A stretch of 64,000 bases of DNA from Deltaproteobacteria bacterium (lineage in GTDB: Bacteria; UBA10199; JACPAL01; JAHFST01), in contig JAHFST010000003.1 of the NCBI GenBank assembly GCA_023265625.1, positions 168,482 to 232,481 of the forward strand, in the 5' to 3' direction. Every line of letters begins with the position of its first letter. The stretch's first letter is position 1. The notes under the pieces are model-generated. The model saw only the letters and a program-made list of their open reading frames with translations. It did no database searches and was not told the origin of the DNA. Shown here in pieces: positions 7,776 through 35,393 of the stretch. A program made the translations under genes and the position numbers.

Positions 7776-9752
7776 ATGGAATTTTGGGGGTTTGAAAATT
7801 GTGGGCGGTTCGTAGGGGAGGCGTTTGCCACCAATAGAATTGGTGATGTTCCTCGTCCACCAGTGCGAATCGATAAAGTGGGTGGTGGTGTTACACAACA
7901 GCCTCCGACAGTCGGCAAACCTGGGTTTCAATCCGGATTAAATCCAGGGCAGTCCTTACAAAAATTATCTCCAGAACAAGTGGCATTGTTGGGACCGGCA
8001 TTACTTAAAATTCTCCAACCCGGGATCAGTGAAACATTACAGCTTGGCACAAATAACTTAACTGGCTTGTTAGGTTCGCCCGTTTTGTCGGGCGGTACTC
8101 AGGTTGTGAATGTGAGCGAACTGGTGACGCAGGTATTGACCCTTTTGGTTTCAGGCGGAAGTTTCTCAGCTTTAGAACATACGGCAGAACATGCTGCAGT
8201 CGTGACCACAACTCATGAATCACCGACAACATCCCAAGCGGCTCCAGTAACTGCGATGGAACATGCGGTGGCTCTCCTATCTGCTGCGTCCGCTCCGGCA
8301 GCGAATACGAATCAGGAATCGCCAGATATCTCCCAGGGTCATACGGTTGTCTCTCCTGAGCATGCAGAACTTAGCGCTGTTGCCAGTCTCCTGTCGGGAA
8401 TGGCGGCCAATGTGGATGTTGAACAACCCTCTCAATTGCTTTTTGCGTCTCCCATTATGGCCCCTGAGGTTGTGTTGCGCACCCACTTGGAGACCTTGCT
8501 GGGCCTGACCTCGAGTTCCGAGGGGTCACTCTCCGTGGCGTTGGAATTAGTCCAGTTGGCGCAAAGTGTGCGTGCCTTATCGGCCTCCGGAGAATTGTCT
8601 CTCGTGTTGCCCTTATTGGGGCAATGTCAGGACCATGCTGAATTTCAACAGTTGAATACGGTCCTGGCGCGCTTTGTCGGCCTGCGTCCGGGCGGACATT
8701 TTCAGGTGGTGCAGCAATTGATTGAGCAGGCCCCAGAATCGGTGCAAGAATTTTCCCAGTTGGTGGCCCAGGTGGCGGTGAGTGAGACTCAGCCCGCGGC
8801 GCTTGTGGCAGTCAGCGAGTCCCCTTTGACGCTCTTTCACGAGGCTTCGGTTGTTCCGGCTCAGGTGGTGTCAACATCAGCGCTGGTCCCAGCGGCTCCT
8901 CAGGCTCCATCAAAGACTCAGTCATCCACTCGATTGGCCGCAGAGACTTCTTTGGTCCGCCGCGTCGGAGTTCCTCTGGCCGAGTTTTTAACCGCATTAC
9001 CCCGTCTGGGTGTCACCGGGGCAGCTGCCCGTGAAATACGAAGTTTTGTCATGCAATTGTCCTCATCGTCCAAGCAACCGGTTTCAGCCCAACAGATGAC
9101 GCACTTTGTGACCCGATTGTTGACCTTGCCAACGGTGCAAACCAAGCCGATGATTTCGATGTTGTTGAAGGCCTTGTACGATCGTAATCCTAAAACTCGT
9201 TTGTTACTTGTTACCCTGTTGCGAGAATTGGCCAAGAAGGCTGATCTGAAACAATTTGCCATGGAACATGCCGAGACCCTGAAGACCTTGGCCCGCACGC
9301 GCGTTTCTGTTCGCACTCCTGATCCACGTCTGGTCGCCGTGAGAGGCGAGGCCCTGGCCCTGCTCTTGGATATGGGACAGCGCCAAGGGAAGAGTCATGA
9401 GGAGATGTTGGCCTTGTTAAATGATGTTGAATTGGTGCCAACCTTGCACCTTCTGTTGTCGAGTGATTCGACCGAGAATATTTTACAGGGCCTGAAGCTC
9501 CTGACCCAGGCCTGGTCCTTTTTGGAGCCAAAGGTCCAGGAGCGGTTTGCCGGGCAGGTTTTGGGGCTGGCCCTGGAAGATTCGGATGACCGAGTCGTGA
9601 CGGGTTCCCTAGGTACCTTGCTGAACCACTACCGGGATCTGGGTGCGGATGTGCAACGTAAGTTGCTGAAAAGAGAGCTCTATTTAGATTTAATCAGGGC
9701 CAACTCGAATCGTTATAGCCGCGGGGCCAATCACTACGCCCGGGCGAGTTGA
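7776..9752 (+). CDS. MEFWGFE-family protein A (Ala/Ser/Gln-rich, 658 aa)
   Basis: Starts MEFWGFENCGRFVGEAFATN; RBS AGGAA 8 nt upstream; N-terminal 20 aa are homologous to the 29477 gene product. Confidence 0.6.
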   Translation: MEFWGFENCGRFVGEAFATNRIGDVPRPPVRIDKVGGGVTQQPPTVGKPGFQSGLNPGQSLQKLSPEQVALLGPALLKILQPGISETLQLGTNNLTGLLGSPVLSGGTQVVNVSELVTQVLTLLVSGGSFSALEHTAEHAAVVTTTHESPTTSQAAPVTAMEHAVALLSAASAPAANTNQESPDISQGHTVVSPEHAELSAVASLLSGMAANVDVEQPSQLLFASPIMAPEVVLRTHLETLLGLTSSSEGSLSVALELVQLAQSVRALSASGELSLVLPLLGQCQDHAEFQQLNTVLARFVGLRPGGHFQVVQQLIEQAPESVQEFSQLVAQVAVSETQPAALVAVSESPLTLFHEASVVPAQVVSTSALVPAAPQAPSKTQSSTRLAAETSLVRRVGVPLAEFLTALPRLGVTGAAAREIRSFVMQLSSSSKQPVSAQQMTHFVTRLLTLPTVQTKPMISMLLKALYDRNPKTRLLLVTLLRELAKKADLKQFAMEHAETLKTLARTRVSVRTPDPRLVAVRGEALALLLDMGQRQGKSHEEMLALLNDVELVPTLHLLLSSDSTENILQGLKLLTQAWSFLEPKVQERFAGQVLGLALEDSDDRVVTGSLGTLLNHYRDLGADVQRKLLKRELYLDLIRANSNRYSRGANHYARAS

Positions 9753-9789
9753 GAAAAAAATGAAAAAAGTGACGATTTTTAATTTTGTA

Positions 9790-9820
9790 AGCAACAATGG
9801 TTCCCTCGGGGGCCGATACT
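9790..9820 (+). promoter_or_regulatory. Sigma-28-like promoter, site B: AGCAACA-N16-CCGATACT
   Basis: Motif family; 23 nt upstream of the 9844 ATG. Confidence 0.45.
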
Positions 9821-33505: not shown

Positions 33506-33539
33506 TTTTAAGTTTAACAAATGTAAAAGGAGACAATTT

Positions 33540-35393
33540 ATGGAACTCTGGGGATACGAAATGACGAAGAATGCGGTGAAGGGCGGGGAGCTGGGCCTGC
33601 AAGCGGCTCCTGTGACGGCACCGGTGGTGACGGATACGAATGACGCCTCGGCGGGGAGTGACTCGATTGGGTTTATGCCCACGGCAGACCTGAGCCGTCG
33701 GAGCGAGAAAGAACTCCGCAAACATGAGGTCTCCACCTGGGATGAACCCGCCCCGCGTGCCCCAGAGACGCACAGTGCACCGCGTGCGGATGTGAATGCG
33801 CAAAAGCGTGGCGCCGGCAAGGCCCATCAGCGCCACGAACTTGTCAAAGAAAAGCGTGCCCAATTGTTGAGTCGGCTGGAAAAGGCCACCTTGCTATTGG
33901 CCCGAGTGAGACAGGATGGCAAGGGGAATAGCCAGGAGTCTGGCAAGGCGTCCGGCAAAGAGTCTAACAAAACGTCCGGCAAAGGCCAGACGCAGTCTGC
34001 TCAAACCAAGGCCGAGAAAAAGATCCTGGCGACCCTGCGTGCCTCCCTGGAGGGTCGGGAGGCCAAGCAGGACATTCGGCAGTTGGCGAGCAAGACCTTG
34101 TCGGATCTGAAAAAGACCACGCAAGAATTAGTCAAAAAAAATCAGTTTTCGGGGGAGACGCGGGCAGGGCTGGAACATGCCAAGACTGAGCTCACGGCAT
34201 CGCTCGGGGAGTTTACCAACTCCCTGGAGCATGCCTCGCTCGGTTCTGAGGAGACCTTGACCCCGGCGGCTCAACCTAGCGAAGTCGCGACATCGGGTAG
34301 CACGGTTGAGACCCGGACTGCAGGAAGCACTCCGGAGGCGGTGCTCCCAGCCCATGCGGAGGTCGTGCAAAAATTGACCCAGGAGCTGCAGGCCTTCGGT
34401 CCCGCGACGACGGTGACACCGGAGAATCTCGAGACGGCGCATCAAGAGATCAAGACCCAGTGCAAGCAGCAGTTGGCGGGACTGACCCAGGTTTTTGAGG
34501 GTCTCAAAGAGGCCCAGGCCAAGCTCAAGTCAATGCTGCCGGCCGCCAGTGCCTCGACCACAGATGAACAACGACCCGAGGCGAAGGTCCAGAAATTGCT
34601 CGAGACCCAGCTCAAGGAGGTCTCGGAAAAGGTGGCGACCATCCGGGCGTCTTTGACCAAGTTGGACAAGATCGAGAATCAAATCTTACGGATGAAGAGT
34701 TACAAGGAATTGAAGGATTCGGTGGAGAAGGATACGACCCCGACCCTTCAGGCGGCTTCTAGCAGTGACTCGGCCGCGCATGAGGTGTTGACCCTGCTCA
34801 AGGCGGCCTCCGCAGGTGAGGAACCTCAACAGGGGACATCCGCAACGGCCAGTGCGACACCGAGTTTTGGCGGTTCGCAGTATCTGTCAGCGGCTTCGGG
34901 TGGGAATGTTCAGGCGGCTTCCGGTGGCGCGGGTGATGGGAGCGCCCTGTTGTCGATCGCCAGCGGCAATAATTTTATCAGCGACCAAAAGAAGGAAAAG
35001 GTTAAAATGGATAAGCTCATCCAAGATATCCTCTTGGCCATTCAATCCGGCAATGTGGATGCCATCAGCGATGCCTTGATCGTGATGGGCTTACAATCCA
35101 AACGGACCCTGCTGGGAGTGGCCTCTCACGTGGTCAAGGCCCTGCAGGTCTACGATCAACAATTGCAGAAGGTATCCGAGGATATGGGTAAAATTACCGG
35201 CACGGAGAAGAACGCGAATGCCACGATGCAAAAACTGAGCCTCGATATGAGCACCTACAGCATGGGTCGGACCGCGCTGGTGAATTCATTGCGTGATGTC
35301 CAGACCATGAACGAAGAAATTGATAACGTTGCGAACAGCTGGCTGAACATTGTGGGTCAGCAGAAACGACAGCTCTCTAGGTTCCAAAGTTAA
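33540..35393 (+). CDS. MEFWGFE-family protein R (starts MELWGYE; Ala/Thr/Gln-rich coiled coil; C-terminal domain shared with Q)
   Basis: C-terminus ...SGNVDAISDALIVMGLQSKRTLLGVASHVVKALQVYDQQ...NSLRDVQTMNEEIDN aligns with Q ...GGNVDAISSILNLEAGRAKITLIGAAYMMVKAMKSYQTQ...NNLRDVKTMEEEIEN. Confidence 0.6.
   Translation: MELWGYEMTKNAVKGGELGLQAAPVTAPVVTDTNDASAGSDSIGFMPTADLSRRSEKELRKHEVSTWDEPAPRAPETHSAPRADVNAQKRGAGKAHQRHELVKEKRAQLLSRLEKATLLLARVRQDGKGNSQESGKASGKESNKTSGKGQTQSAQTKAEKKILATLRASLEGREAKQDIRQLASKTLSDLKKTTQELVKKNQFSGETRAGLEHAKTELTASLGEFTNSLEHASLGSEETLTPAAQPSEVATSGSTVETRTAGSTPEAVLPAHAEVVQKLTQELQAFGPATTVTPENLETAHQEIKTQCKQQLAGLTQVFEGLKEAQAKLKSMLPAASASTTDEQRPEAKVQKLLETQLKEVSEKVATIRASLTKLDKIENQILRMKSYKELKDSVEKDTTPTLQAASSSDSAAHEVLTLLKAASAGEEPQQGTSATASATPSFGGSQYLSAASGGNVQAASGGAGDGSALLSIASGNNFISDQKKEKVKMDKLIQDILLAIQSGNVDAISDALIVMGLQSKRTLLGVASHVVKALQVYDQQLQKVSEDMGKITGTEKNANATMQKLSLDMSTYSMGRTALVNSLRDVQTMNEEIDNVANSWLNIVGQQKRQLSRFQS

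What the first reader, a model, noticed from the sequence alone, without database searches (positions are those of the whole stretch)
7776..35393. Four paralogous proteins begin with a conserved heptapeptide M-[ED]-[FL]-[WY]-G-[FY]-E, a candidate N-terminal secretion signal
Four ORFs start with this motif: A at 7776 (MEFWGFEN), N at 29477 (MDFYGFEN), Q at 31970 (MEFWGFEG) and R at 33540 (MELWGYEM). Each has a good RBS placed so that the motif is the exact N-terminus. A and N share a further 15 residues (FV.EAFATN). Q and R share a C-terminal helical domain of about 130 aa. The remainder of each protein is low-complexity Ala/Ser/Thr/Gln/Gly-rich and coiled-coil-rich, which resembles T3SS translocators or effectors and surface filament proteins. 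Conservation that begins at Met1 is unusual and points to an N-terminal recognition tag. I do not recognise the motif from any described secretion signal (T3SS, T6SS MIX, WXG, LXG).
Basis: seen in the sequence. Interest (0 to 1): 0.85.

Follow-up and report, generated by a model that had tools for sequence, protein, structure and literature searches.

The report
Conserved N-terminal tag on T3SS-linked proteins
Four proteins beside a non-flagellar type III secretion gene cluster begin with the same ~20-residue peptide, which recurs at Met1 of unrelated proteins in related uncultured bacteria, so it is most likely a sequence-defined export or sorting tag for a secretion system whose substrates are unknown.

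Summary
M-[ED]-[FL]-[WY]-G-[FY]-E occurs exactly four times in the six-frame translation, each time at the Met of a long + strand ORF with an RBS (0 expected by chance). It is the head of a ~20-residue module, consensus MDFWGFEGRQxxPGDGFGLF.

The module is found at Met1 of at least 24 non-redundant proteins from other metagenomes and MAGs. It sits on at least five mutually unrelated protein bodies. Its codons vary synonymously, and it is the best-conserved part of these proteins.

The context is not flagellar. It is a Myxococcota-style non-flagellar T3SS: SctJ, SctL, SctN, SctQ, FliO and SctRST, followed by a variable island and then the conserved operon Q-R-TPR chaperone-X-TPR chaperone.

All tag genes that head an operon are preceded by a conserved sigma-28-like promoter (GCAAC[AT]-N15-17-CCGATAA). 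A FliA-family sigma factor is encoded inside the T3SS cluster.

N, Q and R (not A) share a new 140-residue three-helix C-terminal domain that has no Pfam or NCBIfam model.

Best reading (confidence about 0.55): a class-specific N-terminal T3SS export or sorting signal. Export itself is untested. The tag is not universal among the putative substrates, and its composition is atypical for T3SS signals. Novelty: a new variant of a known kind.

The parts
7776..9752 (+). Protein A (658 aa). The N-terminal tag MEFWGFENCGRFVGEAFATN is encoded by 7776-7835. The body is unrelated to N, Q and R and lacks the C-terminal domain.
   Evidence: No Pfam or NCBIfam hit. Only a self hit in the 5.8e9-protein search. 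No TM segment.
7728..7752 (+). Sigma-28-like promoter motif CAACA-N15-CGATA(C), 24 nt upstream of A.
28004..28030 (+). Sigma-28-like promoter motif (CGCAACT-N17-CGATAA) upstream of ORF 28047-29462. N follows that ORF after a 14-nt gap, so the two probably form an operon.
   Evidence: ORF coordinates.
29477..30565 (+). Protein N (362 aa). Tag MDFYGFENRETFVDEAFATN (29477-29536). Three-helix C-terminal domain (CTD) at about 30104-30562.
   Evidence: Recovered as P0004 (5e-55 against the CTD profile).
31902..31928 (+). Sigma-28-like promoter motif (ACAACT-N17-CCGATAA) upstream of Q. It probably drives Q, R, TPR1 and X.
   Evidence: An equivalent motif lies upstream of every Q-type gene in other loci.
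31970..33505 (+). Protein Q (511 aa; alternative start at 31952). Tag MEFWGFEGRGTRLPGDGFGLF (31970-32032), then a Lys/Asp-rich region, a Gly-rich linker and the CTD (33077-33502).
   Evidence: Orthologues in the same position: L048, L049, L050, L055, L022.
33540..35393 (+). Protein R (617 aa). Degenerate tag MELWGYEMTKNAVKGGELGL (33540-33599), a coiled-coil-rich body homologous to the 'R-type' proteins of other loci, and the CTD (34977-35390).
   Evidence: Body homology to L049 and L022 R-type proteins over more than 400 aa. In most other genomes this position starts MSTNxPxVxV.
35487..36149 (+). TPR protein 1, similar to LcrH/SycD class II T3SS chaperones. The true start is probably downstream of the TTG at 35487.
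   Evidence: TIGR02552, 6e-24, profile positions 3-135 of 136, below the trusted cutoff. IpgC hit 1.7e-4 in PDB. 53-54% identical orthologues in the same position.
36153..37121 (+). Protein X (322 aa), a conserved member of the operon. Its C-terminus ...TVTQNLRVG weakly resembles the needle-protein C-terminus.
   Evidence: hhalign probability 13.8%; a lead only.
37263..37808 (+). TPR protein 2, similar to LcrH/SycD chaperones.
   Evidence: TIGR02552, 7e-18. 66-68% identical orthologues in L048 and L049.
9..3497 (+). T3SS export genes: FliM-like SctQ, FliN-like, FliO, SctR, SctS, SctT. The cluster continues upstream of the window with SctJ, a FliA-family sigma, SctL, SctN, FliJ/SctO and a ruler-like protein.
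   Evidence: (the SctR model scores above its cutoff, the FliP model below its cutoff).
9792..23113 (+). Five further copies of the promoter motif inside the variable island. They lie at 9792-9818, 14679-14705, 15224-15250, 20609-20635 and 23087-23113. Each precedes a + strand ORF without the tag, starting at 9844, 14739, 15297, 20644 and 23122.
   Evidence: (10 matches against 0.48 expected).

Best explanation
**What it is.** The heptapeptide is the first part of a ~20-residue N-terminal module. Its consensus is M-[DE]-[FL]-W-G-F-E-x-R-x-x-[LM]-P-G-[DE]-G-F-G-L-F, with a variant subclass ...F-V-x-E-A-F-A-T-N in A and N. [quoted passage not shown]

**Proposed sequence of events.**
1. A FliA-family sigma factor encoded inside the T3SS cluster transcribes the tag genes from GCAAC[AT]-N15-17-CCGATAA promoters.
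2. The proteins are soluble, Cys-poor, and have no Sec signal or TM segment.
3. Their extreme N-terminus is recognised by a cytoplasmic component of the apparatus. Candidates are the export gate SctU/SctV, the sorting platform, or one of the two LcrH-like TPR chaperones.
4. They are exported N-terminus first.
5. The shared three-helix C-terminal domain of N, Q, R and their relatives would then serve chaperone binding and/or extracellular assembly. This would parallel the organisation of sigma-28-dependent late flagellar substrates.

**Shown here:**
- position of the tag at Met1;
- conservation across organisms;
- modularity;
- protein-level selection;
- linkage to the T3SS locus;
- the shared promoter;
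- a sigma factor gene inside the cluster.

**Inferred:**
- that the promoter is read by that sigma factor;
- that the proteins are exported;
- that the tag is what is recognised, and by which partner.
For: **Tag at Met1.**
- Exactly 4 occurrences, all at Met1, 0 expected by chance.
- An exhaustive HMMER search with the CTD profile found 91 representatives. About 20 of about 75 full-length ones begin with the tag at residue 1, and three more have it after a short, probably miscalled, extension.
- A degenerate-DNA scan for the tag gave 4 true hits in 185,579 species genomes, plus 36 non-family matches, about as many as a rough calculation predicts by chance.
- A stricter scan of metagenomes gave 7 hits. 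All 7 are ORF starts with an RBS.

**Modularity.**
- The bodies of A, N, L044_474, L044_563 (multi-TM) and L047_891 are mutually unrelated beyond about residue 22.
- L047_891 is a homologue of window ORF 15297-18278, which itself lacks the tag.

**Selection at the protein level.**
- Synonymous codon variation occurs at every degenerate position of the seven motif codons.
- Mean pairwise identity is 76% for residues 1-7 and 50% for residues 1-24, against 34% for the CTD.

**Linkage to the T3SS.**
- The order sctQ..sctT, variable island, Q, R, TPR1, X, TPR2, sigma-54 EBP(-), STK(-), proC is conserved in L050, L054 and the window; L048 has it with only a toxin-antitoxin pair in place of the island. 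L055 shows it from the island onward; its 5' end stops short of the sct genes.
- In L020/L044 a tag gene directly follows sctT.
- SctR scores above the injectisome model cutoff. SctJ, SctL, SctN and FliJ lie upstream. The TPR proteins hit LcrH/SycD best.

**Co-regulation.**
- The promoter motif occurs 10 times against 0.48 expected. Eight copies lie directly upstream of island, A or Q genes.
- The same motif, or the close variant CAACT-N17-CGATGATAT, precedes the tag genes in every other locus checked.
- A FliA/WhiG-family sigma lies in the cluster: L046, 2.7e-42. The window genome's copy is 72% identical to it.

**Interchangeable N-termini.** At the R position the N-terminus is MSTNxPxVxV in most genomes, WGYE in the window and MDLCLF...GLF in L054.

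**Protein properties.** No TM segments, no Sec-like N-terminus, and 0-2 Cys in A, N, Q, R and X.

**Precedents.**
- Flagellar early substrates use an extreme N-terminal hydrophobic signal plus a downstream gate-recognition motif (PMC8983047).
- Salmonella SPI-2 effectors share an N-terminal translocation domain (PMC2885629, citing Miao and Miller 2000).
Against: - No experimental evidence of export exists for any of these proteins. All organisms concerned are uncultured.
- The tag is not universal. Many genes with the same promoter and the same CTD lack it. Tag-less relatives begin directly with the beta-strand-like segment that follows the tag in Q-type proteins. The tag is therefore an add-on, not the minimal signal.
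- Its composition is unlike described T3SS signals, judged from my knowledge of those signals. It has 5 aromatic residues, net negative charge, acidic residues at positions 2 and 7, and only 1-2 Ser/Thr in the first 25 residues.
- No partner is identified. The class II chaperone-binding motif P/VxLxxP is absent from N, Q, R and X.
- The CTD fold is a generic helical hairpin with no specific structural neighbour.
- Some tag genes (L029, L045) lie away from any T3SS gene within the sequence available.
Confidence: 0.55

Rival explanations
1. The tag is a docking peptide for a cytosolic chaperone or sorting factor, for example one of the two LcrH-like TPR proteins. It would set stability or secretion hierarchy for one substrate class. 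The actual export signal would lie elsewhere, in the following beta-strand-like segment or in the CTD.
For: - Two class II-like TPR chaperone genes are conserved next to Q, R and X.
- Such chaperones bind short extended N-terminal peptides of translocators (PMC3443056, abstract and title listed).
- Tag-less family members exist, so the tag is dispensable for family membership.
- The tag has Pro and Gly residues and is probably extended rather than helical.
Against: - The known binding motif P/VxLxxP is absent.
- Known chaperone-binding regions lie further inside the protein, not at Met1 (my knowledge of IpaB, YopD and PopD).
- Tag genes outnumber the chaperones and occur far from them (L029, L045, L047).
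- This reading overlaps with the main explanation rather than excluding it.
Confidence: 0.2
2. The tag acts after export. As an aromatic, Gly-rich N-terminal peptide it would insert into or bind a target membrane, or dock the protein onto an extracellular structure.
For: - The composition (F, W, G, GFGLF) resembles membrane-active, fusion-peptide-like segments. This is my inference.
- Q-type proteins also carry a long Gly-rich linker.
- One tag protein (L044_563) has several hydrophobic segments.
Against: - The tag is also found on a large AAA-like protein (L047_891) and on the soluble helical-repeat-like protein A, where a membrane-insertion role is not obvious.
- Strict placement at Met1 and interchangeability with other N-termini at the R position fit a recognition signal better.
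Confidence: 0.1
3. The tag has nothing to do with type III secretion. It could be a signal for another pathway, an N-degron or processing site, or a cytoplasmic interaction motif. The linkage to the T3SS locus would then reflect only shared regulation.
For: - Export is untested.
- The tag's composition is atypical for T3SS signals.
- 'G-F' followed by Glu superficially recalls prepilin cleavage sites.
Against: - No hydrophobic helix follows the G-F, and the leader is acidic rather than basic, so it is not a type IV or Flp prepilin signal.
- No other secretion system genes lie in the window or in the related loci.
- Synteny with the sct genes and T3SS-type chaperones is conserved across 35-70% protein divergence.
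Confidence: 0.08
4. The similarity is a by-product of DNA-level spread of a promoter plus 5' end cassette, or of an RNA or translation-initiation element, and is not a protein signal.
For: - Tag genes share a promoter motif.
- Codons in the tag are A/T-rich.
- The Q and R CTDs of the window cluster together, which suggests intragenomic exchange.
Against: - Upstream regions are not alignable apart from the two promoter hexamers.
- The distance from promoter to ATG varies from 24 to about 75 nt.
- Wobble positions vary freely while the amino acids are kept, across organisms whose CTDs are only about 34% identical.
Confidence: 0.03

Closest known systems
N-terminal secretion signals of injectisome (non-flagellar T3SS) substrates
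   Same: Both lie in the first ~20 residues of soluble proteins that lack a Sec signal. The genes lie in or near a T3SS cluster, with TPR class II-like chaperone genes adjacent.
   Different: Described signals have no sequence consensus and are typically Ser/Thr-rich with few acidic residues (my knowledge). This tag has a strict consensus from Met1, is aromatic and acidic, and is shared by unrelated proteins.
Export signals of early flagellar subunits: an extreme N-terminal hydrophobic signal plus a gate-recognition motif that binds FlhB_C (Bryant et al. 2022, PMC8983047)
   Same: Both are two short hydrophobic or aromatic elements near the N-terminus separated by a spacer (here FWGF ... GFGLF). 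The apparatus here keeps flagellar-like parts (FliO, FliJ, split FliM/FliN, a FliA-type sigma).
   Different: The spacing is about 10 residues rather than about 30. The F-x-x-x-hydrophobic motif is not consistently present. There is no homology to rod or hook proteins, and no binding data.
Conserved N-terminal translocation domain of Salmonella SPI-2 effectors (SseJ, SifA, SifB, SspH1/2, SlrP, SseI; Miao and Miller 2000, as cited in PMC2885629)
   Same: Both are a recognisable N-terminal sequence shared by otherwise unrelated T3SS-linked proteins, so both are modular.
   Different: The Salmonella element is a ~140-residue domain with an internal motif, not a 20-residue peptide starting at Met1. 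There is no sequence similarity.
Sigma-28-dependent late flagellar substrates (flagellin, hook-associated proteins)
   Same: Both have a FliA-type promoter (-10 CCGATAA), a conserved N-terminus, a variable middle and a conserved helical C-terminus, with chaperone genes adjacent.
   Different: No Pfam or NCBIfam flagellin, FlgK or FliD domain is found. The chaperones are of the TPR (LcrH) type, not FliS, FlgN or FliT. The -35 element differs (GCAACW rather than TAAA).
Myxococcus xanthus 'needle-less' T3SS* and other Myxococcota non-flagellar T3SS
   Same: Both are non-flagellar T3SS with a FliO homologue, as reported for Myxococcota (PMC12403147). One related locus comes from a Myxococcota MAG. 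The neighbourhood has a PEGA-domain Ser/Thr kinase and an FHA-sigma-54 activator.
   Different: The M. xanthus T3SS* is described as lacking needle and translocon homologues, and no substrates are reported (PMC10849154). Here a conserved Q-R-chaperone-X-chaperone operon is present. The tag was not found in Myxococcus genomes by the DNA scan. The taxonomy of the window is not established.

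Membership tests
T3SS substrate with N-terminal secretion signal | The signal lies within the first ~20-25 residues, and there is no Sec or Tat signal peptide. | tested here: met
   The tag starts at Met1. No hydrophobic h-region or TM segment.
T3SS substrate with N-terminal secretion signal | The gene is linked to and co-regulated with a T3SS apparatus. 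| tested here: met
   Conserved synteny with sctQ-T and LcrH-like chaperones. Shared sigma-28-like promoter, with a FliA-family sigma gene in the cluster.
   Strong consensus. 1-2 Ser/Thr, 3-6 Asp/Glu and 2-5 aromatic residues in the first 25.
T3SS substrate with N-terminal secretion signal | The N-terminus is necessary and sufficient for T3SS-dependent export. | not testable with these tools
   Needs reporter fusions and sctN/sctV mutants.
Class II chaperone-dependent translocators (YopB/D, IpaB/C type) | An adjacent LcrH/SycD/IpgC-family TPR chaperone gene. | tested here: met
   TIGR02552 is the best hit, 6e-24 and 7e-18, nearly full length but below the trusted cutoff. IpgC hit 1.7e-4.
Class II chaperone-dependent translocators (YopB/D, IpaB/C type) | Hydrophobic transmembrane segments in the translocators. 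| tested here: not met
   No 19-residue window with Kyte-Doolittle score of 1.6 or more in Q, R or X.
Class II chaperone-dependent translocators (YopB/D, IpaB/C type) | Chaperone-binding motif P/V-x-L-x-x-P in the N-terminal region. | tested here: not met
   Absent from N, Q, R and X. A has a single chance-level match at residue 69.
T3SS needle or filament protein (SctF/PrgI family), for the CTD and for X | Sequence or profile similarity to needle proteins. | tested here: inconclusive
Flagellar axial or late substrates | Flagellin, hook, HAP or rod domains (Pfam/NCBIfam). | tested here: not met
   No family hit for A, N, Q, R or X.
   The SctR model scores 243.7, above its cutoff of 208.6. The FliP model scores 202.8, below its cutoff of 217.45. 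There is an SctJ lipoprotein rather than FliF. No rod, hook or filament genes lie in the 64 kb window plus 7.6 kb upstream. FliO, FliJ and a FliA-like sigma are present, as reported for Myxococcota non-flagellar T3SS (PMC12403147).
Type IV / Flp prepilin leader | A basic leader ending in Gly, followed by a ~20-residue hydrophobic helix with Glu at +5. | tested here: not met
   The leader is acidic, Glu is at +2, and no hydrophobic helix follows.

The most novel reading that the evidence does not exclude
The 20-residue peptide is a portable, sequence-defined type III export signal. That would be the first T3SS signal recognisable by consensus, in the way Tat or Sec signals are. Its two aromatic elements (MxFWGFE and GFGLF) would engage the export gate in the manner of the flagellar N-terminal signal plus gate-recognition motif. 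Together with the GCAACW-N15-17-CCGATAA promoter, it would allow the secretome of Myxococcota-type T3SS to be read directly from genomes. That secretome would include the new C-terminal-domain family as the extracellular part of the machine.
Probability: 0.35. Interest if true: 0.8.

Novelty: new variant of a known kind. Interest (0 to 1): 0.66.

Why it matters
The early-branching, Myxococcota-style non-flagellar T3SS has no known substrates, needle or translocon (PMC10849154).

A consensus N-terminal tag, a dedicated promoter motif and a conserved Q-R-chaperone-X-chaperone operon would provide three things:
- a direct, testable list of candidate substrates for this class of T3SS;
- a short peptide that could be tested as a portable export tag;
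- a new protein family (the 140-residue C-terminal domain) that may form the missing extracellular part of these machines.

If the tag proves not to be an export signal, it is still an unusually conserved, modular N-terminal peptide that needs an explanation.

Tried and rejected
**Searches that found nothing**
- Word-indexed homology searches with R, A and the CTD alignment A3 found only self hits or nothing. The exhaustive representative search was what found the family.
- The listing of cluster members gave no names or accessions. All clusters are singletons or nearly so.

**Structure**
- Single-sequence AF2 of N was uninformative (pLDDT 43).
- afdb50 was unavailable.

**Hypotheses rejected or left open**
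- Needle homology of the CTD: rejected.
- Needle homology of X: left as a weak lead.
- Class II chaperone-binding motif: absent.
- Classical translocators: rejected because there are no TM segments.
- Prepilin-like cleavage site: rejected.
- RNA or DNA-level explanation: rejected on synonymous variation.
- Chance: rejected.

**Taxonomy**
- The window genome is not among the GTDB species representatives scanned.
- Related loci are labelled Myxococcota, 'uncultured Pseudomonadota' or just 'bacterium', so the lineage is only tentatively Myxococcota-like.

Full report
**1.

Translating the four ORFs and scanning all six frames shows that M[ED][FL][WY]G[FY]E occurs exactly four times in the 64-kb window.

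| ORF | Start | Length (aa) | First residues |
|---|---|---|---|
| A | 7776 | 658 | MEFWGFEN |
| N | 29477 | 362 | MDFYGFEN |
| Q | 31970 | 511 | MEFWGFEG |
| R | 33540 | 617 | MELWGYEM |

- All four are on the + strand, at the Met of a long ORF.
- Shuffled sequence gave no match in 100 trials. Even the four-residue core [WY]G[FY]E is found nowhere else (0.9 expected).
- In A and N a stop codon lies 1-3 codons upstream of the Met. All four have a Shine-Dalgarno-like sequence 5-9 nt upstream.
- Q has an alternative ATG six codons upstream (31952). In more than twenty homologues the motif Met is the first possible start, so 31970 is the likelier start.
- A and N share 14 of their first 20 residues.
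- Q and R share a C-terminal domain: 37% identity over 186 aa, E 1e-25.
A does not carry it and is unrelated to the other three beyond the tag.
- A relaxed scan of ORF starts found no further tag-like N-terminus in the window.

**2. The neighbourhood is a non-flagellar type III secretion locus**

*Apparatus genes.*
- The window opens with FliM-like SctQ, FliN-like, FliO, SctR, SctS and SctT.
- NCBIfam places SctR above the trusted cutoff of the injectisome model and below that of the FliP model.
- The 7.6 kb upstream of the window in the same genome (L051) encode SctJ, two small proteins, a sigma-70-family factor, a FliG_C-like protein, SctL, SctN, FliJ/YscO and a ruler-like protein.
- The sigma factor is 72% identical to one in a related locus that scores as FliA/WhiG family (2.7e-42).

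*Downstream of R.*
- Two TPR proteins have the LcrH/SycD class II T3SS chaperone model as their best NCBIfam hit by far (6e-24 and 7e-18, near full length, below the trusted cutoff).
- They flank a 322-aa protein, X.

*Flagellar features.*
- No flagellar rod, hook or filament genes are present.
- FliO in non-flagellar T3SS is reported as typical of Myxococcota (PMC12403147).
- The flanking PEGA-domain Ser/Thr kinase, FHA-sigma-54 activator and PrkA-YeaH-SpoVR genes fit a Myxococcota-like organism. The taxonomy remains unproven.

**3. The family and the tag in other organisms**

*The C-terminal domain (CTD) family.*
- Word-indexed searches found only self hits.
- An exhaustive HMMER search of 1.84 billion representatives with a profile of the CTD found 91 proteins (60 with E < 1e-10). 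The domain is always at the extreme C-terminus.
- About 20 of about 75 full-length members begin with the tag at residue 1. Three more have it after a short, probably miscalled, extension.

*The module and its variants.*
- The motif is the head of a 20-residue module, MDFWGFEGRQxxPGDGFGLF.
- Related variants are M[DE]xYL[LF]...LPIVLTRPGL[LF] and MDLCLF...AGLF.
- Another subfamily starts MSTNxPxVxV. Others start directly with a beta-strand-like segment.

*DNA scans.*
- A degenerate-DNA scan for MDFWGFE/MEFWGFE in 185,579 species genomes gave 40 hits. Four are true family members: L018, L020, L022 and L029, the last from a Myxococcota MAG. Thirty-five of the other 36 are internal to ORFs or open only short ORFs, and the last (L025) opens a 233-aa ORF whose sequence after the motif does not resemble the module. 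That number is of the order expected by chance from a rough calculation.
- A stricter pattern in metagenomes gave seven hits. All seven are ORF starts with an RBS.

*Conservation.*
- The tag is the most conserved part of these proteins. Mean pairwise identity is 76% over residues 1-7 and 50% over residues 1-24, against 34% for the CTD. The middle regions do not align.
- The codons vary synonymously at every degenerate position. Selection therefore acts on the peptide, not on an RNA or DNA element.

**4. The tag is modular**

- Apart from the CTD proteins, it heads A, a 474-aa protein and a 563-aa multi-TM protein in L044, and an 891-aa protein in L047.
- These bodies show no similarity to one another beyond about residue 22.
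- The L047 protein is homologous (28% over 729 aa, E 7.5e-68) to window ORF 15297-18278, which starts MGDGDNYLNSGRT instead.
- The protein in the R position starts MSTNxPxVxV in most genomes. In the window it starts MELWGYE, and in L054 it carries the variant tag.
- N-termini are thus exchanged on a constant body, as expected for a targeting signal.

**5. Synteny**

- L050, L054 and the window share one order: sct genes up to sctT, variable island, Q-type, R-type, TPR1, X, TPR2, sigma-54/FHA activator (-), PEGA kinase (-), proC. L048 shares it with only a toxin-antitoxin pair between sctT and the Q-type gene. L055 shows the same order from the island onward; its 5' end does not reach the sct genes.
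- Protein identities range from 24% to 78%.
- The gap between sctT and the Q-type gene is about 0.9 kb in L048, several kb in L050 and L054 (7.3 kb in L050), and 28 kb in the window.
- It holds toxin-antitoxin modules, COG1373-type ATPases and lineage-specific proteins. In the window these include A and N.
- In L020/L044 a tag gene directly follows sctT.

**6. A shared promoter**

- CCGATAA, the sigma-28 -10 element, is over-represented in the window (27 against 12.7 expected).
- The bipartite motif CAACW-N15-17-CGATA occurs 10 times against 0.48 expected.
- Eight copies lie on the + strand immediately upstream of + strand ORFs between 7.7 and 32 kb. These include A, the 28047-N operon and Q.
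- The same motif, or the close variant CAACT-N17-CGATGATAT, precedes the tag genes in every other locus examined. It also precedes many tag-less island genes.
- It lies upstream of the 134-aa ORF that precedes the sigma gene in the window's own T3SS cluster.
- I infer that the cluster's FliA-family sigma reads these promoters. This was not tested.

**7. What the proteins are**

- A, N, Q, R and X have no TM segment, no Sec-like N-terminus and 0-2 Cys.
- The CTD folds confidently (pLDDT 94) as three long helices. Its structural neighbours are generic hairpins. There is no significant PDB sequence hit, and hhalign against PrgI gives 2.6% probability.
- X ends in ...[IV][IT]QN[LIY]R. It aligns end to end with the PrgI C-terminal helix, but only at 13.8% probability. 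This is a lead, not a result.
- Q and R are therefore not classical hydrophobic translocators. They may be hydrophilic tip, filament or harpin-like components. That is speculation.

**8. Interpretation**

*Best-supported reading.* The tag is an N-terminal export or sorting signal for a class of substrates of this T3SS (confidence about 0.55). The overall organisation parallels late flagellar substrates:
- a sigma-28-type promoter;
- a conserved N-terminus, a variable middle and a conserved helical C-terminus;
- adjacent chaperone genes.

*Closest mechanistic precedents.*
- The extreme N-terminal hydrophobic signal plus gate-recognition motif of early flagellar subunits (PMC8983047).
- The shared N-terminal translocation domain of Salmonella SPI-2 effectors (PMC2885629).

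*Against it.*
- There are no export data.
- The tag is absent from many putative substrates of the same regulon.
- Its aromatic, acidic, Ser/Thr-poor composition is unlike described T3SS signals.

*Rivals.*
- A chaperone or sorting-factor docking peptide (0.2, partly overlapping with the main reading).
- A post-export membrane or assembly function (0.1).
- A function unrelated to the T3SS (0.08).
- A DNA or RNA cassette artefact (0.03, contradicted by the synonymous variation).

**9. Novelty**

- The motif strings are absent from the searchable literature.
- The four proteins hit no Pfam or NCBIfam model.
- The M. xanthus T3SS* is described as lacking known needle and translocon homologues, and no substrates are reported (PMC10849154).
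- A consensus, portable N-terminal tag linked to a T3SS would be a new variant of a known kind of signal.
- The CTD family and the promoter regulon are, as far as I can tell, undescribed.

Noticed in passing
window 7728-31928, eight sites; also L018, L020, L043-L050, L054, L055; L051 at about 815-845: A conserved sigma-28-like promoter motif, (C)GCAAC[AT]-N15-17-(C)CGATAA, defines a regulon of island genes, tag genes and T3SS genes. A FliA-family sigma gene lies inside the T3SS cluster and may be autoregulated.
   Followed up: yes
window 36153-37121 (X); alignment A4: X and its orthologues end in [IV][IT]QN[LIY]R.., which resembles the needle-protein C-terminus IIQNFR. hhalign aligns this end to end with PrgI residues 42-80, but only at 13.8% probability.
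   Followed up: partly
window 18302-19354 and 25505-26677; L050 4040-6890; L018 3066-7992; L047 627-5181: Island proteins carry lineage-specific conserved C-terminal end motifs. The window has ...SHNPF[AS]DVLG[EK]* after a TM segment, L050 has GPD[FY][IV]F*, L018 has [IV]IRD* in six paralogues, and L047 has ASIFRS..R.RP*. These may be a second kind of sorting or anchoring signal.
   Followed up: no
window 15297-18278 and 23122-25500: Two large AAA-like paralogues share the N-terminus MGD[GN]D[ND]YLNSGRT.LYPNLDHQEFG. Each is followed by a paralogous TM protein, so this is a duplicated two-gene module. A homologue in L047 carries the WGFE tag instead.
   Followed up: partly
window 20609-20646 and 23087-23124: The -10 element CCGATAA lies only 7 nt before the ATG of ORFs 20644 and 23122. 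This suggests leaderless transcripts.
   Followed up: no
window 3498-31900: The interval between sctT and Q is about 28 kb. It is about 0.9 kb in L048 and several kb in L050 and L054 (7.3 kb in L050). It is a variable island packed with HEPN/nucleotidyltransferase, DUF433/DUF5615, HTH and DUF4258 toxin-antitoxin-like modules and lineage-specific proteins.
   Followed up: partly
window 13410-14561(-) and 26753-27907(-); L044 4259-7122; L047 9275-10660: AAA_14/DUF4143 (COG1373-type) ATPase genes repeatedly lie divergently next to promoter-bearing island operons, in the window and in other organisms.
   Followed up: no
window 33077-33502 and 34977-35390: In a tree of the C-terminal domains, the window's Q and R domains cluster with each other rather than with the Q-type and R-type clades. 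This suggests intragenomic homogenisation, and may also explain why R carries a WGFE-like tag here.
   Followed up: partly
window 9844-10152 and 10149-10475: Two small ORFs lie just downstream of A, behind their own promoter copy. One is 102 aa and Ala/Gly-rich. The other is 108 aa and acidic, and could be a small chaperone. Neither has a family hit.
   Followed up: no
window 37908-41557(-): An FHA-sigma-54 activator and a PEGA-domain Ser/Thr kinase lie convergent to the Q-R-TPR-X-TPR operon. The arrangement is conserved in L048, L050, L054 and L055, so they are likely regulators of the system.
   Followed up: no
L048 3708-4857: The Q-type gene of this metagenome contig is split into 247-aa and 139-aa ORFs. 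This is either a frameshift or a sequencing error.
   Followed up: no
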